Origin: Sulfolobus acidocaldarius DSM 639 | GTDB lineage: Archaea > Thermoproteota > Thermoprotei_A > Sulfolobales > Sulfolobaceae | Assembly (NCBI RefSeq): GCF_000012285.1 | Contig: NC_007181.1 | Span: forward strand, 1,170,001-1,202,000 | DNA: 32,000 nt | Reading direction: 5' to 3' | Made by a program: the position numbers and the translations under genes | Shown here: positions 732 through 20,365 of the stretch, piece after piece | Position numbering within the stretch: the first letter of the stretch is position 1 | Layout: the number at the start of each line of letters is the position of its first letter | The notes under the pieces: model-generated | Told to the model about the DNA's origin: nothing | The model's input: only the letters and a program-made list of their open reading frames with translations | The model's database searches: none

Positions 732-2738
732 ATGTCATGCAAAACTCCAAAAAACTACACACTTGTAATTGCTGAAAAAAGTAAGGCAGCAAGAAAAATC
801 GCAGAAGCGTTGTCAAATAACTATTCATATTGTAAAAAATTCTACGTCAACTTCTGGATTGTAAATTACTCCTCTAAATATTATATAATATCACCAGCTG
901 CAGGTCATTTGTTCAACTTATATGGCAATTCCTCATTTCCTGTCTATGAAACAGAATGGAAACCTTTATGGCAAATAGATCCTTCAGCTAGATATACAAA
1001 GAAATATTACGATTTAATTAAATCTCTATCTAAAGATGCACAGGAGTTTATCAATGCATGCGATTACGATATAGAAGGATCATTGATAGGTTATCTCATA
1101 ATAAATTTTTTAGGTGATATAAAAAGAGCTAAGAGAGCAAAATTTTCTGCTCTGACTAAAGAAGATATACTAAACTCTTTCAGAAACTTAAAACCTTTAG
1201 ACTATGACATGATTCATGCAGGTATAGCTAGACATAAAGTAGATTGGTTGTGGGGCATTAACGTAAGTAGAGCCCTTATGAAGAGCGTATATACACTTAC
1301 ACGAAAAAGAGTAATCCTAAGTGCTGGCAGAGTTCAGAGCCCGACATTAATACATGTAATAAACAATACAGTAAAGAGAGAATTATTTGTTCCTTTACCA
1401 TACTATTCAATTAATTTAACCATTAATTTAAAAAATAAAGAATTTAAGATAACAATACCAAAAACTTTCGAGAACAAGAATGAAGCAAAACAATACTTAG
1501 AGGAAATAAAAAAGGTAGGTGAAGTCACAGTAACTAACATAGAGTTAAAAGATGCTGTAATTTATAGACCGCCACCATTTAATTTAACAGATTTACAGCT
1601 AGAAGCTGGAAGACTATTTGGTTATTCACCATATTTAGTTGAAAGACTTGCGGAGAACCTGTACCTAAATGGGCTAATAAGTTATCCTAGAACTAATAGT
1701 CAAAAAATACCACCTTCTGTAAATATTTATCAAATAATTGACTCCCTCTCTAAGTCAAAAAGATACGGATCACTGATAAACACATTGTCTCAAATTACCA
1801 AAGGGAAGTATATAGTAAGGCAAGGAGAAAAAGATGATCCAGCACATCCTGCAATATATCCAACTGGAGAATTACCCTATAATTTGGATACCAAGGAATT
1901 GAAACTATATGAATTAATTTTGAGACGATTTTTAGCTTCAATGTCCACAGACGCTAGAGTTAGAAAACAAGAAATAACTTTAAGGATTCCTAAAGTTGAT
2001 ATTGAACTAAAACTGAACATACAGAGCCTGATATATAAAGGTTGGATAATCTTATACCCATACACTAAGTTCTCAGATGAGGAACTTCTGGATGTGAAAA
2101 AAGGAGATAAAGGGCGTATTGTAAGGGCTAACAGTACAATGAAAGTCACAAAGCCTGATACACAACGAGTATCAAAGATTCAATTACTTAAATGGATGGA
2201 GTCGAATAACTTAGGAACTGAAGCTACAAGAGGTAGAATTATAGAGACACTGTTCAAAAGAAAGTATTTAATGAGTAAGGGTAAGTACGCTTATCCCACG
2301 CCCATCGGAATCGTAGTAACTGATGTTTTATCATCTTATTTTAAGGACTTGACGGATGTGAGATTAACATCAGAGATGGAAAAAAAATTAAACGGAATTA
2401 TTAGCGGAAAATTTTCTGAGAACGAAGTAGTTGAGGAAACTAAGAAACTAATAGAGAAATACATTAATGAATTTGAAAATTCAAAGAACGATATTGGAAC
2501 TAAAATAGGAAAAATTCTAGGTCTATTAGAGTATAAAAAATGCAAATATTGTGAATTAGAAGTCTATAAAGATGATCTGTGTAAATATCACTTAAATGCA
2601 ATAAAACTTCTTAAAGATAACTTGAAAATATGGAAGGAGAGGACAGATCTAACAGAAGAATCAATTATTAAAAAACTTAAAAAGCTTAACACTGCAGGGA
2701 AATTTATAAGAGATGTATTGAATACATACTATAACTGA
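732..2738 (+). CDS. topA: type IA DNA topoisomerase (topoisomerase III-like)
   Basis: 668 aa. It has a Toprim N-terminus (VIAEKSKAARKIAEAL, acidic ACDYDIEGS motif), an active-site Tyr region ISYPRTNSQ and a C-terminal Cys/His motif CKYCELEVYKDDLCKYH. There is no helicase domain, so it is not reverse gyrase. Confidence 0.9.
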   Translation: MSCKTPKNYTLVIAEKSKAARKIAEALSNNYSYCKKFYVNFWIVNYSSKYYIISPAAGHLFNLYGNSSFPVYETEWKPLWQIDPSARYTKKYYDLIKSLSKDAQEFINACDYDIEGSLIGYLIINFLGDIKRAKRAKFSALTKEDILNSFRNLKPLDYDMIHAGIARHKVDWLWGINVSRALMKSVYTLTRKRVILSAGRVQSPTLIHVINNTVKRELFVPLPYYSINLTINLKNKEFKITIPKTFENKNEAKQYLEEIKKVGEVTVTNIELKDAVIYRPPPFNLTDLQLEAGRLFGYSPYLVERLAENLYLNGLISYPRTNSQKIPPSVNIYQIIDSLSKSKRYGSLINTLSQITKGKYIVRQGEKDDPAHPAIYPTGELPYNLDTKELKLYELILRRFLASMSTDARVRKQEITLRIPKVDIELKLNIQSLIYKGWIILYPYTKFSDEELLDVKKGDKGRIVRANSTMKVTKPDTQRVSKIQLLKWMESNNLGTEATRGRIIETLFKRKYLMSKGKYAYPTPIGIVVTDVLSSYFKDLTDVRLTSEMEKKLNGIISGKFSENEVVEETKKLIEKYINEFENSKNDIGTKIGKILGLLEYKKCKYCELEVYKDDLCKYHLNAIKLLKDNLKIWKERTDLTEESIIKKLKKLNTAGKFIRDVLNTYYN

Positions 2739-2793
2739 TGATGTGAGTCATGCCATCTTGATTGATGATATTAACCCTGGGGTAACTGATTTG

Positions 2794-3918
2794 TTATAGA
2801 GCCTTATACTTCTCGTGCCAAGCCTCATATACCTTGATTACTTCTGAATTTACACTGGGTTTCCTTATTTTAAGGATCTCCTTAAAGTCCTCCATATTAA
2901 CAGCTCTAGGTTGCTCTAATTTTTTGTCGAACATCTCCTTTACTACCCTTATATGGGCAGCTTGAACTATGTCTTTTATATCACTTGCAGTATACCCTTC
3001 TGTCATTTTAGCTAGTTCATCTATATTAACATTGTCCATTTTTATCTTTGAAGTATAGTGTAATAATAGTGACTTTCTCTGCTCAATATCTGGTAAGCGT
3101 ATGTATATTCTCTTCTGAAATCTTCTTAAGAACGGCTCGTCTAGTCTCCAAGGCTTATTGGTTGCACCTATAACATAGACCTTAAAATTCTCAGATTTAT
3201 CCTGCAAACCATCCATTTCCTTCAGGAATTGATTTCTGACCCTAACTTCCCCACCATTTTCACTATTATATGTACCAAGTAATGCATCTATCTCGTCTAT
3301 GAATATTATCACAGGTTTGCCATCCTTCTTGGACAATTCTCTAGCACTGTTGAATATTTTTGCTACATTTTTCTCAGCCTCGCCTAGCCACTTAGACATC
3401 ACTGATGCTGCGTCGACTTGAATAAAATATGAGTCGATCTCATTAGCTACAGCAGCTGCAATCATTGTTTTACCACAGCCTGGCGGTCCATAAACCAATA
3501 TACCTCTAGGCCATCCTAACGGAAATAGATCTGGTCTTCTTGTAGGATAGACAATAGCCTCTTTTAGAGCCTCCTTAACGTCTTCCAAACCCACGATGTC
3601 ATTAAAGTTTACTTTAGGTTTCTCCTTCATTACTAAATCGTCTACAGAGACTTGACTGTGTTTACCATTCCCATTCCCCGCACCATCAGCAGGAATTAAT
3701 TCCTTTAAAACCTCTATTCGTCTTTTATACTCATTAATCATTTGCTCATATATAGCAGCTGTCGATCCGTCCCTATATAGAGAAACCAGTTGTGCTAATA
3801 CCTCGATCGCTTTCTTGTAGTTGGTAATTGCCTCTTCAGCATTTCCCTCTTTGTCGGCTTTTACAGCATTTATAGCATATTTCCTTGCCATCTCTTCAAG
3901 CATTACTTGGGCAGACAT
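2794..3918 (-). CDS. cdvC: CdvC, Vps4-like AAA+ ATPase with N-terminal MIT domain
   Basis: 374 aa. It has an N-terminal three-helix MIT-like region, Walker A GPPGCGKT, Walker [11 protein letters not shown] and an SRH region [16 protein letters not shown]. It starts 2 nt downstream of the cdvB stop. Confidence 0.92.
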
Positions 3919-3920
3919 AC

Positions 3921-4706
3921 TTAACCCTCAAGAACAATTAGACCCTTTTCTTCGAGTCTCCTTAACACATTGAAAACTTCATCTTTACTAACATCAAAAT
4001 TCTTAGCTATGTAATCTACATCAATAAATCCACCAGTAGTCTTTATGTAATTTAGTATCATATCCTCTGATAAACTCTTCTTGTTGCTACTTTGAACTTG
4101 TTTAGCTACTCTCTTTGGTAACTCTGAAGGTGGATGGGGTAGTTCTGGCAACAATTCTCTAACTTTTACTTCAGCCATCTTCTGAGCTTCTTCCATTATC
4201 TGTTTCGCTTGTTCGTCAGCAACTGTTGGAACAAATGTCTTCTCGCTTAATGCACCAGTTTCAATGGCTATACTATTTACGCTACTCGTTATTGAATCTA
4301 AAGCGAGAGCCACTTCTGGTGCAATACCTCTAACTTGCTCCTTTAATTCTCCTAGTATACGCATTACTGGGAATAGCACCAGAGAAACTCCCTGTAGCTC
4401 CTGGACGGTATCTAGTTTTAATCTTACCTTTTCTATAGCTAAATATGCAGTATATATTATTTTAATCATTTTTCGTATGTCCGAGATCTCTTGTGCATAT
4501 ATCGTAGCTCTCGCTATATCTCCTTCAATTTGAGATCTAATGACTTTCTCAAAGAGATCTTTGTCTCTCTCCCTTAATCTCCTTATTGCTTCGTCTAATC
4601 TATCCTGCTGCTCTTTTAATTTTAAAGATATTTCAGTTATCGCTTTGGACAAATGCACCTTTCTCTTTCTATCACTATTAAAAATTATCGATAACTTATC
4701 AAACAT
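3921..4706 (-). CDS. cdvB: CdvB, ESCRT-III (Snf7-family) protein with C-terminal winged helix
   Basis: 261 aa. It has a long helical-hairpin core, a proline-rich [10 protein letters not shown] (MIM2-type Vps4-binding) motif and a C-terminal wH ([33 protein letters not shown]). Confidence 0.9.
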
Positions 4707-4723
4707 CCTATGTCACTAATTCT

Positions 4724-5440
4724 TCATAAAGTATTTATTACCCTTACTGGTATTGGAACAGACACTTCAGACTTATTACCCTCGTTCTTATTTGACTGTT
4801 CTGTTGACGTGTTTAATGAGGCAGAAGGCTTAAGTTCTATTACCTCCTTATCCAATCCGTCAAGTTTATCTAGAGTTTTCTTTATATCGTCTCTTTCCAA
4901 TGCATAACTATCCCTAGACAGTCTTAGAATTTCCATAGAATTTTTATATGCAAGTTCTGGTATTTCACCCGATATGTAATTTATCTTCAATGCAATCATA
5001 GCTCTATCAATTTGAGCAACTTGGTCCTCTATTGAGTTTAATCTATCTTTTAATCTTCCCTTTAATCTTGAATGCTCATCTCTTATCTTTAGCAACTCAC
5101 TGTCTAACTTCCTTTTCATATCCTCATATGTACTTTTAGGTATCTCTTGCCTAGAGTATAACTCCTCGAGCGCTCTTTGTCTCTTCCTTATCTTCTCCAT
5201 CTGTCCTAATACTTTCAAAGAGTCGGTTTTCCAATCAGGTAATATTACTACAGAATCTCCATCAACTTTTACGCTATTCGGAGAATATGTCTTGATTTCT
5301 TCACCTTTAAATAATTCAATACCTGTTATTGTACCATCAATTTCAGTATAAACATGAACTATTACTCCAGCATCACGACCATAAACGTCCTTTACCTTTT
5401 GCCCTATGAACTTTGTTAATACCTCAACCGGAATGCCCAT
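4724..5440 (-). CDS. cdvA: CdvA, PRC-barrel/coiled-coil cell division protein
   Basis: The ORF track starts at TTG 5455. I prefer ATG 5440 (MGIPVEVL..., 238 aa). It has an N-terminal PRC-barrel-like beta domain, a central coiled coil and a C-terminal [10 protein letters not shown] peptide of the kind that binds the CdvB winged helix. Confidence 0.9.
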
Positions 5441-5473
5441 GGTATTACTCCTCAAAGTTATCAGCTATGATGA

Positions 5474-5486
5474 TTATATTTATAAG
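5474..5486 (-). promoter_or_regulatory. cdvA TATA box region
   Basis: The minus-strand sequence CTTATAAATATAA ends 33 nt upstream of the ATG at 5440. This implies a TSS around 5450-5456 and a short 5' UTR. Confidence 0.6.
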
Positions 5487-5492
5487 AATTTA

Positions 5493-5551
5493 GGCTCTTC
5501 AGTAGGTAGAGGTTCATCATCAATAAGCGCTTTTAACCCTCATCATTAGCC
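5493..5551 (-). ncRNA. C/D box sRNA (2'-O-methylation guide)
   Basis: The minus strand reads GGCTA-ATGATGA(C)-GGGTTAAAAGCG(12 nt)-CTTA(D')-TTG-ATGATGA(C')-ACCTCTACCTA(11 nt)-CTGA(D)-AGAGCC. A terminal stem GGCU/AGCC is possible. A TATA box (GTTTATAA, plus-strand coordinates 5574-5581) lies 22 nt upstream of the 5' end. Confidence 0.75.
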
Positions 5552-5573
5552 CCATAATATTACGCTAATTAGC

Positions 5574-5581
5574 TTATAAAC
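5574..5581. promoter_or_regulatory. shared bidirectional TATA element (sRNA on minus strand, 82-aa membrane ORF on plus strand)
   Basis: The palindromic core TTATAA lies about 22-26 nt from the sRNA 5' end (5551) and about 25-30 nt from the ATG at 5606. Confidence 0.5.
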
Positions 5582-5605: not shown

Positions 5606-5854
5606 ATGAGCCTGGAAACATTTCACTATATTGCTAATCAATTATCAGGTATATTTAACTTCAATGGAGAGCCTTTAGCTACAGCATTAATAATACTAGG
5701 ATTGGCAATACTTTCAATAATGATATTGGCTGGGTTAATTTATGGAGCAATAAAGGTAGTTAAAGCAGTTCCAAACATGCCTTTTAAACAGTTCATCATA
5801 GTAATGCTAATGATAGCAGTATTCTTAGTAATTGTTGGAGTACTAATACCCTAA
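5606..5854 (+). CDS. small membrane protein (two predicted TM helices)
   Basis: 82 aa. It has two long hydrophobic segments ([26 protein letters not shown] and [19 protein letters not shown]). I recognise no family. Confidence 0.5.
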
Positions 5855-13733: not shown

Positions 13734-14735
13734 TTGAGTGAAGGAGCAGGAAGATTTTCTAAAGACGTAGAGACTAGAAAGGTACAAAGATTAGGTTCAT
13801 CTTCACTCTTTATAACTTTACCCAAGAAGTGGATCAATAAATGGGGAGTAAAACCTGGTGATAAAATTATTATAGAAATTTCCGAGGATGGAGGTCTTAG
13901 ACTCGTTGCGGAAAAAGTGAAAAATACCTACACTAAAAAGAGCATTAAAATTGACGTGGACAATTATAAACAAAGTATAGTAAACGCCATACCTTCTCTT
14001 TATATTTTAGGATATGATGAAATGTTATTTACGACCAAGAAAAACCTAGATCCAAAAGAGGTTGAAAATGTAATTACTTTGTCCAAGAATCTAGTAGGAA
14101 TTGAAGTCGCAGAGAACAATAATAACCTAATAAGATTAGATTGCCTACTTGATACTGAGAAGCTTGGTTCAGAGACATTACTTAGAAGAATATTAAATAT
14201 TATTTCTAAGAAAGTAGATGAAATAATTGAATATTTAAGAGGACAACAGAGCACAGAGGTTCAACAAACATTAGAAGATTTAAGAAGAGTATACCTCATG
14301 CTATTGAGAAGAAGTATAGGGAATAAATATATGGCAGAAAGGGATAAAGTAAGGAACTTCATAATAGCAATCAATTCTACGATAATGATGAGAGTCTACA
14401 GAATTATATCTAAATTGTATGATGAAATTAAACATAATCAAATTTCACTTCCACAAGAACAAGCAAAAACTTTAATTGATATGTTCAGGGAGACTAACGA
14501 CCTTTTTGACGAAATCATTATGAGCATACTTTTCCCCAGTATAAAGAGAATTTCGAACGGTTATACATTAATAAATCAGCTTAAACAAAAATATGAAAGA
14601 TTGGATATAAAAGATAATTTAATTAGAAATTATTTTGAAGATCTTATATTTAACCTTGAAGAAGCTTTAAATAACTCCTCCTGTTCCATATTCTTAGAGG
14701 ACGCTCCTTGGATAGAGAGAAATTTTAACTCATAA
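13734..14735 (+). CDS. AbrB/SpoVT-domain plus PhoU-like regulator
   Basis: 333 aa with a TTG start. It has an N-terminal swapped-hairpin motif (VQRLGSSSLFITLPKKWINKWGVKPGDKIIIE) followed by a helical PhoU-like region. A TATA box TTTTTATAAA lies upstream. Confidence 0.6.
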   Translation: MSEGAGRFSKDVETRKVQRLGSSSLFITLPKKWINKWGVKPGDKIIIEISEDGGLRLVAEKVKNTYTKKSIKIDVDNYKQSIVNAIPSLYILGYDEMLFTTKKNLDPKEVENVITLSKNLVGIEVAENNNNLIRLDCLLDTEKLGSETLLRRILNIISKKVDEIIEYLRGQQSTEVQQTLEDLRRVYLMLLRRSIGNKYMAERDKVRNFIIAINSTIMMRVYRIISKLYDEIKHNQISLPQEQAKTLIDMFRETNDLFDEIIMSILFPSIKRISNGYTLINQLKQKYERLDIKDNLIRNYFEDLIFNLEEALNNSSCSIFLEDAPWIERNFNS

Positions 14736-14761: not shown

Positions 14762-15508
14762 ATGGTCATGTTAAAAATAGAGGACATCCATGTTGAAGTT
14801 GAAGGTAAAAAAATACTAAAAGGAATAGACATGGAAATAAAGTCAGGAGAAATACATGTATTAATGGGACCTAATGGAAGTGGAAAAACTTCACTTTCCT
14901 TAGCATTGATGGGTCATCCTAAATATAAAATAACTCAGGGCAAAATATTACTTGATAACGAGGATATAACTAGCCTAGAGACCTTTGAAAAAGCGCGAAA
15001 AGGTATATTTCTTGCCTTCCAGAACCCTATAGAAATTAGTGGAGTTAAACTATCAACTTTATTAATAGCAGAGTATTCCAGAATGCATAGTTCAACAGCA
15101 CAACCTCAGATGATTATCAAACAGATAAAAGAAGTCAGCAAATCAGTAGGAGTTAATGACTCTCTACTTAATAGAGGAATATTTGATGGCTTTAGCGGAG
15201 GAGAAAAGAAGAGAACAGAGATTCTACAGATGTTATTAATAAAACCGAAAATAGCCATACTTGATGAACCCGACTCTGGTGTAGATGTGGATGGGCTTAA
15301 AGCCATTTCAGATGCCATATTAAAATTAAAGTCTGAATCAAATACTGGCTTCTTAATAATAACTCATTACAGAAGAATATTAGAGCATCTAAATGCCGAT
15401 AAAGTACATATACTCTACAACGGTAAAATAGTAAGAAGCGGAGGTATGGAATTAGCAAAATTAGTCGATGAGAAAGGGTACGAAGGAGCTCTAAAACAGT
15501 TTTTATAA
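14762..15508 (+). CDS. sufC: Fe-S cluster assembly ATPase SufC
   Basis: 248 aa with Walker A GPNGSGKTS, signature FSGGEKKR and Walker B ILDEPDSGVD. Confidence 0.9.
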   Translation: MVMLKIEDIHVEVEGKKILKGIDMEIKSGEIHVLMGPNGSGKTSLSLALMGHPKYKITQGKILLDNEDITSLETFEKARKGIFLAFQNPIEISGVKLSTLLIAEYSRMHSSTAQPQMIIKQIKEVSKSVGVNDSLLNRGIFDGFSGGEKKRTEILQMLLIKPKIAILDEPDSGVDVDGLKAISDAILKLKSESNTGFLIITHYRRILEHLNADKVHILYNGKIVRSGGMELAKLVDEKGYEGALKQFL

Positions 15509-15578
15509 AACTATTCATAAAACATTGATGACTAAGTTTAAATGTTATCTTTAACAGAGTTTATATTGGGTAATTCAA

Positions 15579-17018
<1,440 letters not shown>

Positions 17019-18188
17019 ATGGGCTTAATTGATTTTTCTTCTGCACAAAATTACATTTCTAAATTAGAAAATAGAAGCGAAAGAGAAAGACTTCTTTCAC
17101 AATTTCTTACAATGCCATACCAGAGAATAAACGACTCTCCTTCTTTAAAACATTACACTGACTGGAATAGACTTGAAGCATTAAACTTAGAAATAAAAGA
17201 TATTAATGCTAAAGAACCTTCTAAACCTATTTTAGATCAGGAGTATAAAATTCTAACTATACCCCAACCCACAAAATTAGATGGATTTATAAAGATAGAA
17301 GATAAGCCGGAGAATGCTCTAATAAAAGCTGATGAGCATAAGTTAGTAAGTTTAGTCCTTGCATTGTCTAAAAAGACAATAATTGATCTATCTGCAATCA
17401 CACCTAGAAAATTATTAATTTACCATAATTCGTCCAGTAACTCATTAATACCAGCTAATATAGAGCTAAAGATCCCTGAAGGTGAAAATGTTGATGTAGT
17501 GTACTTTAGTGAAACCGATGATCAGAACTCGATGACTTCAAGTTTGATTTCGTTCGTAGTACCGCAAAACTCTACTCTTAACTTGTCCATAATTTCTCTT
17601 TCAGCCCATTCCTTCATTTATACAAAAGGATTAGTTAAGGGAACAATAAATGCGAATATATTTTCATCTAAAACTAAGCTAACTCACATAGATTATTATG
17701 TTGATTTAGATGAAAAAGCTCAGTCCACATTTTCATCAAGGGCAATAGGCATAGAGGATAATAATGTTGATATTAGAGTTGCTGTAAATCACTTAGGAGT
17801 ACAGAGTAGAAGTGAAGGAACCCTCAGAGGAATTTCTACAGATAGTTCGTTAGTTATAGTTAGAGGGAATGCAATAATAAGTGAAAGCGGAATTGACTCC
17901 TCCACATCAATAATTGGAAAAGCCTATACCATAGGGAAAGATTCAAAGGCAATAGTAGCACCTATGTTAGAAGTTAAGACTGGAAAAGTACAAATGGCTA
18001 AACATTCAGCATCTATATCTAAAGTTCCTGAAGATTTAATATTCTATTTGGAATCTAGAGGATTTAGCAGAAAGGAAGCTGAGTCTCTTATAATAAAAGG
18101 GTTTATGATTGACGAGAATGATCCTAAATTCCTTGTTGATCTTATTAACGAAATACTTACGGAGCGTAAGATATTAGTTTCAGTCTAG
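17019..18188 (+). CDS. sufD: Fe-S cluster assembly protein SufD
   Basis: 389 aa. It starts immediately after the sufB stop. The C-terminus is SufD-like (AKHSASISKVPEDLIFYLESRGFSRKEAESLIIKGF). Confidence 0.8.
   Translation: MGLIDFSSAQNYISKLENRSERERLLSQFLTMPYQRINDSPSLKHYTDWNRLEALNLEIKDINAKEPSKPILDQEYKILTIPQPTKLDGFIKIEDKPENALIKADEHKLVSLVLALSKKTIIDLSAITPRKLLIYHNSSSNSLIPANIELKIPEGENVDVVYFSETDDQNSMTSSLISFVVPQNSTLNLSIISLSAHSFIYTKGLVKGTINANIFSSKTKLTHIDYYVDLDEKAQSTFSSRAIGIEDNNVDIRVAVNHLGVQSRSEGTLRGISTDSSLVIVRGNAIISESGIDSSTSIIGKAYTIGKDSKAIVAPMLEVKTGKVQMAKHSASISKVPEDLIFYLESRGFSRKEAESLIIKGFMIDENDPKFLVDLINEILTERKILVSV

Positions 18189-18388: not shown

Positions 18389-18389
<1 letters not shown>
18258..18389 (+). 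CDS. 43-aa ribbon-helix-helix (CopG/Arc/MetJ-type) DNA-binding protein, not in ORF track
   Basis: My translation is MRVITFKVDEDLLQELDLYAINSKSSRSEIIREALIRYLKDRK. It has the beta-strand, helix and SRSE-helix pattern of RHH proteins. A TATA-like TTTTTAATATATAA lies about 30 nt upstream. The stop TAA (18387-18389) overlaps the 3' terminal base of the antisense tRNA. Confidence 0.6.
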
Positions 18390-18479
<90 letters not shown>

Positions 18480-19746: not shown

Positions 19747-20013
<267 letters not shown>

Positions 20014-20365
20014 TTTCACGCTCCATATTATGGTTACCAATTCACGCTTATAGGCGTTGGTAACTCGTTAAAAGTTACGAGATTTTACCTAGAGTTGAAA
20101 GTTCGTGATAAAAAATCCTCATTAGTACTAACTAAAAAATATGGGCGCATTAATGGTTATAATTTTTATTGAATTAACCGGGGAGTAAAATCCCTTTGTA
20201 AAATACAAGAAATTTAACAACAACTTCTAACTTGATTATTTAAAAATTAACAGTAAGACAAACTTCTTCCTCTTCACAACTTATCTTGTTACACGAATCA
20301 AAAAGTATAATTTAACATCTCAGTTTCCGCAATGTCAGAAAAATATGGTTTTAATTCAAATTTCT

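What the first reader, a model, noticed from the sequence alone, without database searches (positions are those of the whole stretch)
2794..5486. cdvA-cdvB-cdvC: ESCRT-III/Vps4-type cell-division cluster with a PRC-barrel partner
Three co-oriented minus-strand genes are separated by 17-nt and 2-nt spacers. CdvA has a PRC barrel, a coiled coil and a C-terminal [10 protein letters not shown] peptide. CdvB has an Snf7/ESCRT-III helical core, a proline-rich [13 protein letters not shown]2-like motif and a C-terminal winged helix. CdvC has an MIT domain, Walker A GPPGCGKT, Walker B IIFIDEID and a Vps4-type AAA+ module. No FtsZ-type gene is present in the window. This is the architecture of the crenarchaeal Cdv division machinery, a eukaryote-like membrane-remodelling system used for cytokinesis. 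It is the most striking system in the window, but it has been established for Sulfolobus since 2008, so it is not novel. The domain calls are my reading of the translations. The function is literature knowledge.
Basis: partly seen in the sequence, partly recalled or inferred. Interest (0 to 1): 0.8.

Follow-up and report, generated by a model that had tools for sequence, protein, structure and literature searches.

The report
Sulfolobus acidocaldarius cdvABC cell-division genes

Summary
Three co-oriented minus-strand genes lie at 2794-3918 (cdvC), 3921-4706 (cdvB) and 4724-5440 (cdvA), with 2-nt and 17-nt spacers. All three proteins score above NCBIfam's curated equivalog cut-offs for CdvA, CdvB and CdvC. 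They are also residue-for-residue identical to S. acidocaldarius CdvA, CdvB and CdvC (AAY80708, AAY80707, AAY80706). This is therefore the locus in which the Cdv system was first described.

Two domain calls, the PRC barrel and Snf7, fall below Pfam thresholds, but structure supports both.

Corrections:
- cdvA starts at ATG 5440. The stretch 5441-5486 holds its TATA box, an SD-like GAGG and a published-type aCcr1 repressor box.
- A review reports two transcription units, cdvA and cdvB-cdvC. A recent preprint still calls it the cdvABC operon.
- No FtsZ or Cdv paralogue lies in the window.

The invariant guide of sR26, which has no predicted rRNA target, is complementary to the tRNA-Lys(UUU) anticodon loop. 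This is my inference and is unverified.

Verdict: correct, already known, low interest.

The parts
2794..3918 (-). cdvC (Vps4-type AAA+ ATPase, 374 aa). MIT domain aa 1-75 (nt 3694-3918). Walker A GPPGCGKT aa 144-151 (3466-3489). Pore-loop-like SKWLGE aa 175-180 (3379-3396). Walker B IIFIDEID aa 204-211 (3286-3309; E209 is the residue mutated in the published Vps4 E209Q). C-terminal Vps4_C helix aa 329-370.
   Evidence: NCBIfam CdvC equivalog 697.8 bits against a cut-off of 650. Pfam MIT 39.8, AAA 135.6, AAA_lid_3 40.1 and Vps4_C 26.1 bits. PDB 4lcb CdvC at E = 3e-183. MIT 100% identical to 2w2u_A. Exact match to AAY80706.1. Motif positions.
3921..4706 (-). cdvB (ESCRT-III homologue, 261 aa). 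N-terminal MFDKLSIIF segment, then the ESCRT-III core aa 1-193. C-terminal 'broken' winged helix about aa 212-260 (nt 3927-4073).
   Evidence: NCBIfam CdvB equivalog 448.5 bits against 370. Pfam Snf7 25.9 bits, just under its gathering score of 27.3. PDB 9s9j (S. islandicus CdvB, closed ESCRT-III fold) aligned over aa 1-193 at E = 5.7e-89, and 2xvc winged helix over aa 212-260 at E = 5.3e-7. Exact match to AAY80707.1.
4724..5440 (-). cdvA (238 aa). Beta-rich PRC-type domain about aa 10-67 (nt 5240-5413). Three-helix coiled coil aa 69-198 (nt 4847-5236). Disordered linker aa 200-228. E3B peptide [10 protein letters not shown] aa 229-238 (nt 4727-4756).
   Evidence: NCBIfam CdvA equivalog 417.6 bits against 350. 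Pfam CdvA coiled coil 150.3 bits. AlphaFold2 model with pLDDT 83: six strands, three long helices and a disordered tail. The model matches the S. islandicus CdvA crystal structure 9s9g at TM 0.93, then PRC domains 8onw, 1pm3, 5o64_H and 7cq1. Exact match to AAY80708.1.
5441..5486 (-). cdvA promoter and 5' leader. TATA box TTATAAAT at 5478-5485. SD-like GAGG at 5450-5453. aCcr1-box-type site AGTAATACC at 5441-5449, directly abutting the ATG.
   Evidence: Sequence. TTTGAGGAGTA[A/T]TACC is identical in seven of eight aligned Sulfolobales loci (A4), although it is non-coding, and CTT[A/T]TAA is conserved. [quoted passage not shown] The 8-mer alone is not rare in the window: 3 found, 3.5 expected.
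4732..4740 (-). Candidate TATA-like element TAATAAATA for a separate cdvB-cdvC transcript. It lies inside the last codons of cdvA, about 30 nt upstream of the cdvB ATG (4706).
   Evidence: Sequence. It is conserved in Aramenus and M. yellowstonensis, but it is coding sequence, so the conservation is ambiguous. It is consistent with the published statement that the locus has two transcription units (PMC5840170). Inference only; no transcription start data were seen here.

Best explanation
This is the cdvA-cdvB-cdvC locus of Sulfolobus acidocaldarius (Saci_1374, Saci_1373, Saci_1372 by my recollection of the locus tags). It encodes the core of the ESCRT-III-based cytokinesis machine of Sulfolobales.

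Mechanism, as published for these proteins or close orthologues, with the sequence features confirmed here:
1. cdvA is transcribed first in the division-phase wave. [quoted passage not shown] One such box lies at 5441-5449.
2. CdvA polymerises through its PRC domain and three-helix coiled coil into double-stranded filaments, forming a mid-cell ring.
3. The C-terminal E3B peptide of CdvA (aa 229-238) supplies the missing strand of CdvB's broken winged helix (aa ~212-260). This recruits CdvB, whose N-terminal amphipathic helix binds membrane.
4. The non-contractile CdvB ring templates CdvB1 and CdvB2, which are encoded outside this window.
5. The MIT domain of CdvC/Vps4 (aa 1-75) binds the CdvB MIM2 (aa 183-193). 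The AAA+ ring (Walker A aa 144-151, Walker B E209) extracts CdvB for proteasomal degradation.
6. CdvB1 and CdvB2 are then free to constrict the membrane and cut it.

Shown here: gene identity, domain content, motifs and conserved synteny. Taken from the literature: protein interactions, order of events, localisation and regulation.
For: - Exact sequence identity of all three proteins to S. acidocaldarius CdvA, CdvB and CdvC (CdvA also).
- NCBIfam equivalog scores above the curated cut-offs for all three.
- Pfam CdvA, MIT, AAA, AAA_lid_3 and Vps4_C hits.
- PDB relatives: 4lcb CdvC; 9s9g CdvA; 9s9j CdvB; 2xvc winged helix; 2w2u MIT at 100% identity.
- The AlphaFold2 model of CdvA superposes on the 9s9g crystal structure (TM 0.93, rmsd 1.6 A). 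The next-best hits are PRC domains.
- The order cdvA-cdvB-cdvC is kept in eight related loci that extend far enough: L001-L003 and L005-L007, L130, and L128, whose CdvA is only 36% identical. L129, with a 30%-identical CdvA, runs off its contig just after the gene downstream of cdvA.
Against: Nothing contradicts the identification. Weak points:
- Snf7 and PRC fall below Pfam gathering scores.
- The genome-contig scan did not return the source genome; the best hit was 60% identical. The organism assignment therefore rests on exact protein look-ups and on coordinates published for the two flanking sRNAs.
- No expression, localisation or interaction data can be produced with these tools.
Confidence: 0.98

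Rival explanations
1. The three genes form one tricistronic operon driven only by the promoter upstream of cdvA, as the 17-nt and 2-nt spacers suggest.
For: Tight spacing, with no room for a promoter in either spacer. A recent preprint calls it 'the cdvABC operon' and reports TFB2 enriched at promoters of division genes including it.
Against: A review states that the locus has two transcription units, cdvA alone and cdvB-cdvC, with cdvA induced about 30 min before the cdvB paralogues (PMC5840170 citing Samson 2011). A TATA-like TAATAAATA lies about 30 nt upstream of the cdvB ATG, inside cdvA. aCcr1 binding is reported at the promoter regions of cdvA, cdvB1 and gar1-tfb2.
Confidence: 0.2
2. The locus mainly serves other ESCRT-type membrane remodelling, such as vesicle budding or virus release, rather than cytokinesis.
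For: [quoted passage not shown] Viral aCcr1 homologues target the cdvA promoter.
Against: The papers read here report cell-cycle-regulated expression, mid-cell rings, and division arrest with dominant-negative Vps4 E209Q, CdvA lacking E3B, or CdvB C-terminal fragments. Other roles are additional, not alternative.
Confidence: 0.02

Closest known systems
S. acidocaldarius DSM 639 cdvA/cdvB/cdvC (AAY80708/AAY80707/AAY80706; UniProt CDVA_SULAC, CDVB_SULAC, CDVC_SULAC)
   Same: All three proteins are identical in sequence. The MIT domain is identical to PDB 2W2U. The flanking sRNA genes sit at the published genome coordinates, giving a window offset of 1,170,000.
   Different: Nothing detectable at the protein level. 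It is the same locus.
Saccharolobus islandicus / S. solfataricus Cdv proteins (PDB 9S9G CdvA, 9S9J CdvB, 2XVC CdvB winged helix with E3B, 2V6Y MIT)
   Same: Same three-gene order and domain layout. CdvA is about 66% identical and the model superposes at TM 0.93. The CdvB core aligns over aa 1-193. The same surrounding synteny is seen in S. shibatae.
   Different: Orthologues, not identical. According to the review, the S. islandicus paralogues interact with Vps4 differently from those of S. acidocaldarius.
Eukaryotic ESCRT-III (Snf7/CHMP family) with Vps4 in abscission
   Same: The ESCRT-III core fold is shown by the S. islandicus CdvB structure. Both use a proline-rich MIM2 bound by an MIT domain, and an AAA+ Vps4 with a C-terminal Vps4_C helix.
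   Different: The recruiter is CdvA, an archaea-specific PRC plus coiled-coil protein, not ESCRT-I/II. It docks on a winged helix carried by CdvB itself. CdvB has a Vps2/24-type core but a MIM2 rather than a MIM1.
Stand-alone archaeal PRC-barrel proteins (PDB 8ONW A. fulgidus PRC1/PRC2; 1PM3 MTH1859) and the PRC barrel of the photosynthetic reaction-centre H subunit and of RimM
   Same: These are the best non-CdvA structural matches to the CdvA N-terminal domain (E = 1e-3 to 0.15, target TM 0.5-0.68, except the 249-residue H subunit at 0.20, a local match).
   Different: Sequence similarity is below the Pfam threshold. Those proteins lack the CdvA coiled coil and the E3B peptide. From my own knowledge, not checked here: the 8ONW-type proteins act with FtsZ-based division.

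Membership tests
Cdv system (CdvA-CdvB-CdvC) of Sulfolobales | CdvA orthologue (NCBIfam NF041007, cut-off 350 bits) | tested here: met
   417.6 bits over aa 8-241 of the TTG-start 243-aa ORF (aa 3-236 of the 238-aa protein). Exact match to AAY80708.1.
Cdv system (CdvA-CdvB-CdvC) of Sulfolobales | CdvB orthologue (NF041008, cut-off 370 bits) that carries a C-terminal winged helix, unlike CdvB1/B2/B3 | tested here: met
   448.5 bits, against 142 bits for the CdvB1/B2 model and 38 bits for CdvB3. aa 212-260 match the 2xvc winged helix at E = 5.3e-7.
Cdv system (CdvA-CdvB-CdvC) of Sulfolobales | CdvC orthologue (NF041006, cut-off 650 bits) | tested here: met
   697.8 bits over aa 1-373.
Cdv system (CdvA-CdvB-CdvC) of Sulfolobales | Adjacent, co-oriented gene order cdvA-cdvB-cdvC | tested here: met
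   The same order is seen in L001-L003, L005-L007, L128 and L130.
Cdv system (CdvA-CdvB-CdvC) of Sulfolobales | CdvA C-terminal E3B peptide that binds the CdvB winged helix | not testable with these tools
   The peptide [10 protein letters not shown] is present, and P229/I230/V234/I235/N236/T237 are invariant or nearly so in 36 CdvA sequences. Binding is known only from the literature (Kd about 6 uM, PDB 2XVC).
Cdv system (CdvA-CdvB-CdvC) of Sulfolobales | CdvB MIM2 bound by the CdvC MIT domain | not testable with these tools
   [11 protein letters not shown] is present at aa 183-193. The MIT domain is identical to the chain crystallised in 2W2U. The interaction itself comes from the literature (Kd about 30 uM).
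Cdv system (CdvA-CdvB-CdvC) of Sulfolobales | Cell-cycle-regulated expression and mid-cell ring localisation | not testable with these tools
   Published for this organism. The only sequence-level support here is the conserved aCcr1-box-type site at 5441-5449.
ESCRT-III / Snf7 (Pfam PF03357) | Sequence match above the Pfam gathering score | tested here: inconclusive
   25.9 bits against 27.3, E = 9e-6, covering profile positions 2-167 of 171.
ESCRT-III / Snf7 (Pfam PF03357) | Five-helix ESCRT-III core fold | tested here: met
   aa 1-193 align end to end at E = 5.7e-89 with 9s9j. That crystal structure is described as the canonical five-helix ESCRT-III fold (PMC12818579). This is by close homology; I did not model CdvB itself.
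Vps4-type AAA+ ATPase | N-terminal MIT domain, one AAA+ module with Walker A and Walker B, a lid, and a C-terminal Vps4_C helix | tested here: met
   MIT 39.8 bits (cut-off 30), AAA 135.6, AAA_lid_3 40.1 (cut-off 27.2), Vps4_C 26.1 (cut-off 21.3). Motif positions. Structures 4lcb, 4d80 and 4lgm.
PRC barrel (Pfam PF05239) | Sequence match above the Pfam gathering score | tested here: not met
   10.6 bits against 21.2, E = 0.61. Only 12 of 36 CdvA sequences match at E <= 10, the best at 0.0077. CdvA should therefore not be filed in PF05239 on sequence grounds.
PRC barrel (Pfam PF05239) | PRC-barrel fold | tested here: met
   After CdvA itself, the best structural matches of the model are PRC domains: 8onw, 1pm3, reaction-centre H subunit 5o64_H and RimM C-terminal domain 7cq1. 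The 9S9G authors describe a PRC domain.

The most novel reading that the evidence does not exclude
The cdv locus is bracketed by two C/D-box sRNA genes whose ends touch its boundaries. The 3' end of Sac-sR26 lies 5 nt from the cdvA TATA box. Sac-sR128 ends on the cdvC stop codon, on the opposite strand. The most novel reading not excluded is that this arrangement is functional. For example, read-through or termination of sR26 could set basal cdvA transcription or insulate its promoter, and sR128 could define or mask the 3' end of the cdvC mRNA. Against this, the sR26-cdvA arrangement is kept only inside a syntenic block of roughly 10 kb. It is absent from the two loci with the most divergent CdvA (30-36% identical to the window's), where the flanking genes differ. 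Simple inherited synteny is therefore the likelier explanation.
Probability: 0.06. Interest if true: 0.4.

Novelty: already known. Interest (0 to 1): 0.1.

Why it matters
The Cdv system matters in general. It is the ESCRT-III/Vps4-based alternative to FtsZ for prokaryotic cytokinesis, and a window on the origin of eukaryotic membrane abscission. This particular locus is the one in which the system was first described. It already has crystal and cryo-EM structures, genetics, live imaging and a mapped transcriptional circuit. Re-finding it adds no knowledge. It shows only that the first-stage reader can recognise the system from raw sequence.

The one small loose end with some value is unrelated to division. 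Sac-sR26 has no predicted rRNA target, yet its guide may direct 2'-O-methylation of the wobble U34 of tRNA-Lys(UUU).

Tried and rejected
1. The genome-contig scan with CdvA returned only four loci at 56-60% identity and not the source genome. I established identity through exact protein look-ups instead.

3. I considered the small two-TM protein orf82 (5606-5854, plus strand), divergent from cdvA, as a possible membrane anchor for CdvA.
- An 82-83-aa gene occupies that position in most Sulfolobales loci examined (a 50-aa one in L007).
- The whole gcvP-enolase-orf82-cdvABC-topoisomerase block of roughly 10 kb is syntenic in those loci.
- No small divergent gene lies upstream of cdvA in the two loci with the most divergent CdvA.
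- No papers mention Saci_1375, which I assumed to be its locus tag.
There is no specific evidence for a link, so I dropped the idea.

4. I tested whether sR26 is functionally coupled to cdvA. It is absent upstream of cdvA in L128 and L129, where the flanking genes differ. This argues for plain inherited synteny.

5. The conserved block upstream of the cdvA TATA box first looked like a regulatory site or a micro-ORF (MMKVKSA). It turned out to be the C box and guide of the published Sac-sR26.

6. The aCcr1-type 8-mer is not enriched in the window, with 3 found against 3.5 expected. Its meaning rests on its position and conservation, not on its count.

7. Samson et al. 2011 (PMC3763469) is not held. 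The statement about two transcription units is second-hand, from a review.

8. The S. acidocaldarius tRNA-Lys(UUU) sequence and its modification status could not be obtained.

9. The four plus-strand antisense ORFs inside the cdv genes (50-89 aa) have no Pfam hit. I treat them as shadow ORFs.
Full report
**Observation**

The window holds three co-oriented minus-strand ORFs:
- 2794-3918, 374 aa
- 3921-4706, 261 aa
- 4724-5455, 243 aa from a TTG, or 4724-5440, 238 aa from the ATG

The spacers are exactly 17 nt (4707-4723) and 2 nt (3919-3920). The start codons are ATG, ATG, ATG, and the stops are TGA, TAA, TAA.

- Cdv[11 protein letters not shown], aa 229-238
- Cdv[11 protein letters not shown], aa 188-197
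- CdvC GPPGCGKT, aa 144-151
- CdvC IIFIDEID, aa 204-211

Three in-frame stops lie between 5441 and 5488. That stretch is the promoter and leader.

**Identity**

NCBIfam equivalog models score all three proteins above their curated cut-offs:
- CdvC 697.8 against 650
- CdvB 448.5 against 370
- CdvA 417.6 against 350

The CdvB1/B2 and CdvB3 models score far lower on the middle protein (142 and 38 bits). It is therefore CdvB proper, not a paralogue.

Pfam gives CdvA coiled coil 150 bits, MIT 39.8, AAA 135.6, AAA_lid_3 40.1 and Vps4_C 26.1, all above threshold.

An exact-sequence look-up shows that the three proteins are residue-for-residue those deposited as S. acidocaldarius CdvA, CdvB and CdvC (AAY80708.1, AAY80707.1, AAY80706.1; UniProt CDVA/CDVB/CDVC_SULAC) (CdvA also). 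CdvC residues 1-75 are 100% identical to chain A of PDB 2W2U. The review describes that entry as the S. acidocaldarius CdvC MIT domain bound to the CdvB MIM2.

Two C/D-box sRNA genes flank the locus. Their published genome coordinates fix the window at about 1,170,001-1,202,000 of the S. acidocaldarius chromosome.

**Two domain calls that needed more than a profile search**

Snf7 scores 25.9 bits, just under the Pfam gathering score of 27.3. However, CdvB aa 1-193 align end to end with the S. islandicus CdvB crystal structure 9S9J at E = 5.7e-89. Its authors describe that structure as the canonical five-helix ESCRT-III fold (PMC12818579).

The PRC barrel is not significant by sequence. It scores 10.6 bits against 21.2, with E = 0.61. 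Only 12 of 36 CdvA homologues touch the model at E <= 10.

I therefore modelled CdvA from a 36-sequence alignment. The model has a mean pLDDT of 83. It shows six beta strands (aa 15-66), three long helices (aa 69-96, 102-156, 162-198) and a disordered tail (aa 200-238).

Foldseek against the PDB puts the model on the S. islandicus CdvA structure 9S9G (TM 0.93, rmsd 1.6 A, 66% identity). The next matches are PRC domains:
- A. fulgidus PRC1/PRC2, 8ONW (E = 1.2e-3)
- MTH1859, 1PM3 (E = 3.4e-3)
- the reaction-centre H subunit, 5O64_H
- the RimM C-terminal domain, 7CQ1

So the PRC call is right at the level of fold, as the 9S9G authors also state. The C-terminal winged helix of CdvB matches PDB 2XVC at E = 5.3e-7 over aa 212-260.

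**'No FtsZ in the window'**

Pfam scans of the three Cdv proteins and 35 further ORFs gave no tubulin/FtsZ hit. No GGGTG[ST]G signature occurs in any frame. A tblastn search of CdvA, CdvB and CdvC against the window finds only the genes themselves, so no CdvB paralogue lies here either. The four antisense ORFs inside the cdv genes have no family match.

**Surroundings and conservation**

The neighbours are rpoK, a type IA topoisomerase, [cdvC, cdvB, cdvA], a small two-TM ORF (5606-5854, plus strand), enolase, three small ORFs and the glycine-cleavage genes.

The same block, in the same order, is found in these loci:
- Ca. Aramenus, two Metallosphaera species and a Sulfolobales MAG
- Saccharolobus shibatae, Sulfodiicoccus and two further MAGs

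In L128, whose CdvA is only 36% identical, the flanks differ but cdvA-cdvB-cdvC stay together. L129, with a 30%-identical CdvA, also has different flanks, but its contig ends just after the gene downstream of cdvA.

**Regulatory sequence**

Upstream of cdvA the sequence reads CTTATAAATATA (TATA box, 5478-5485), then about 24 nt, then TTTGAGGAGTAATACC-ATG. The last 16 nt are identical in seven of the eight aligned Sulfolobales loci, apart from one A/T position, although the flanking non-coding DNA varies.

This block contains an SD-like GAGG and the 9-mer AGTAATACC (5441-5449). The 9-mer fits the published aCcr1-box A(T/G)G(A)TA(G)A(T/G)TACN and the AGTATTA/GTATTA seed. [quoted passage not shown] The 8-mer by itself is not rare in the window, with 3 found against 3.5 expected. 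Its weight comes from position and conservation.

A TTG at 5455 would lie at or upstream of the expected transcription start. The annotated protein is 238 aa, so ATG 5440 is the start.

The tight spacing suggests an operon. A review, however, reports two transcription units, cdvA and cdvB-cdvC, with cdvA induced about 30 min earlier (PMC5840170). A TATA-like TAATAAATA sits inside the last cdvA codons, about 30 nt before the cdvB ATG. That is compatible with the review, but it is only an inference.

**Mechanism**

The interactions and the order of events come from the papers read here:
1. CdvA polymerises through its PRC domain and coiled coil into double-stranded filaments.
2. The E3B peptide of CdvA completes the broken winged helix of CdvB, with a Kd of about 6 uM.
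3. CdvB binds membrane through a short N-terminal amphipathic helix and templates CdvB1 and CdvB2.
4. The MIT domain of CdvC/Vps4 binds the MIM2 [11 protein letters not shown], with a Kd of about 30 uM.
5. [quoted passage not shown]

The numbering of published mutants fits this sequence: Vps4 E209Q, CdvB 194-end and CdvA lacking E3B.

The conserved block upstream of the cdvA TATA box is a C/D-box sRNA gene on the minus strand. Its layout is:
- C box ATGATGA, 5540-5546
- 12-nt guide GGGTTAAAAGCG
- degenerate D' box CTTA
- C' box TGATGA
- 11-nt guide
- D box CTGA, 5499-5502
- a terminal GGGCU/AGCCU stem

Rfam's sR1 model scores it at 43.3 bits, under its gathering score of 45, so the default scan missed it. 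It is the published Sac-sR26, listed at genome position 1175549 on the negative strand with 5170 reads. No rRNA target is predicted for it (Dennis et al. 2015 supplement).

The ten-nucleotide core GGUUAAAAGC of its first guide is identical in all nine loci that keep the syntenic block. Its second guide varies.

The invariant guide is complementary to GCUUUUAACC(C). That is the anticodon loop (CUUUUAA) plus the flanking stem bases G31 and C39-41 of tRNA-Lys(UUU). By the box-D'+5 rule, the methylated base would be the wobble U34.

A metagenome scan for GCTTTTAACCC, a 10-12-nt gap, then GTTCAAATC returned 120 stretches. ARAGORN called 87 of them tRNA-Lys(ttt), and no other tRNA type was called. 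This only shows that such tRNAs exist, because the pattern imposed the match. I could not obtain the S. acidocaldarius tRNA itself. The pattern of one conserved tRNA guide paired with one orphan guide matches what a review describes for tRNA-targeting sRNAs (PMC7994747).

The second sRNA, Sac-sR128 (2733-2794, plus strand; published targets 23S C2715 and G2697), fills the whole convergent gap between the topoisomerase gene and cdvC. The topoisomerase stop codon TGA lies inside its C box. Its last base is the last base of the cdvC stop codon.

**Verdict**

The object is already known in full: it is the S. acidocaldarius cdv locus itself. Interest is low. The only mildly new thread is the possible tRNA-Lys target of Sac-sR26, and it is unrelated to cell division.

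Noticed in passing
window 5491-5550 (-): A C/D-box sRNA gene lies 5 nt upstream of the cdvA TATA box. It is identical to the published Sac-sR26 (Dennis 2015 supplement), which has no predicted rRNA target. Rfam's sR1 model scores it at 43.3 bits, under its gathering score of 45, so the default Rfam scan misses it. It is present at the same place in nine Sulfolobales loci. It is absent from the two loci with the most divergent CdvA (L128, L129).
   Followed up: yes
window 5528-5539 (-), D' guide of Sac-sR26: The guide GGGUUAAAAGCG (core GGUUAAAAGC identical in nine loci) is complementary to G31-C41 of tRNA-Lys(UUU), that is, the anticodon loop CUUUUAA plus flanking stem bases. The D'+5 rule points to the wobble base U34. 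This would explain an 'orphan' sRNA with a fixed guide. The S. acidocaldarius tRNA sequence and its modification state could not be checked.
   Followed up: partly
window 2733-2794 (+): The published C/D-box sRNA Sac-sR128 (predicted targets 23S C2715 and G2697) fills the entire 55-nt convergent gap between the topoisomerase gene and cdvC. The topoisomerase stop codon TGA is part of its C box. Its 3' end overlaps the cdvC stop codon on the other strand.
   Followed up: partly
window 5573-5580 and 5606-5854 (+): A palindromic TATA element (CTTATAAA / TTTATAAG) sits about 26 nt from the 5' end of Sac-sR26 and about 29 nt from the ATG of a divergent 82-aa two-TM ORF. It may serve both directions. 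A small ORF occupies the same position in the Sulfolobales loci examined (82-83 aa in most; 39-48% identical in L001-L004), but not where the flanks of cdvA differ. It overlaps the enolase gene's 3' end by 4 nt. No family assignment.
   Followed up: partly
window 19747-20040 (-) and 19756-19831 (+): A 97-aa ORF matching the SSV1 ORF D-335 (integrase) N-terminal family (87 bits) overlaps a tRNA-Arg(TCG) gene. This looks like the leftover integrase fragment and attachment site of an SSV-type integration.
   Followed up: no
window 18389-18479 (-): A 91-nt tRNA (Rfam 59.6 bits) that ARAGORN reports with a 4-nt anticodon. Read by eye, it looks like tRNA-Thr(UGU) with an intron of about 15 nt after the anticodon loop.
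   Followed up: partly
window 13734-14735 (+): A 333-aa protein with an N-terminal SpoVT/AbrB-type (MazE_antitoxin) domain lies directly upstream of sufC-sufB-sufD-like genes (14762-18188).
   Followed up: no
L005-L007, L128, L130 (precomputed annotations): The precomputed annotations list a newer Pfam family, PF27303 CdvB_HTH, for the CdvB winged helix. It did not appear in my hmmscan of CdvB, where only weak MarR/HTH matches covered that region.
   Followed up: no
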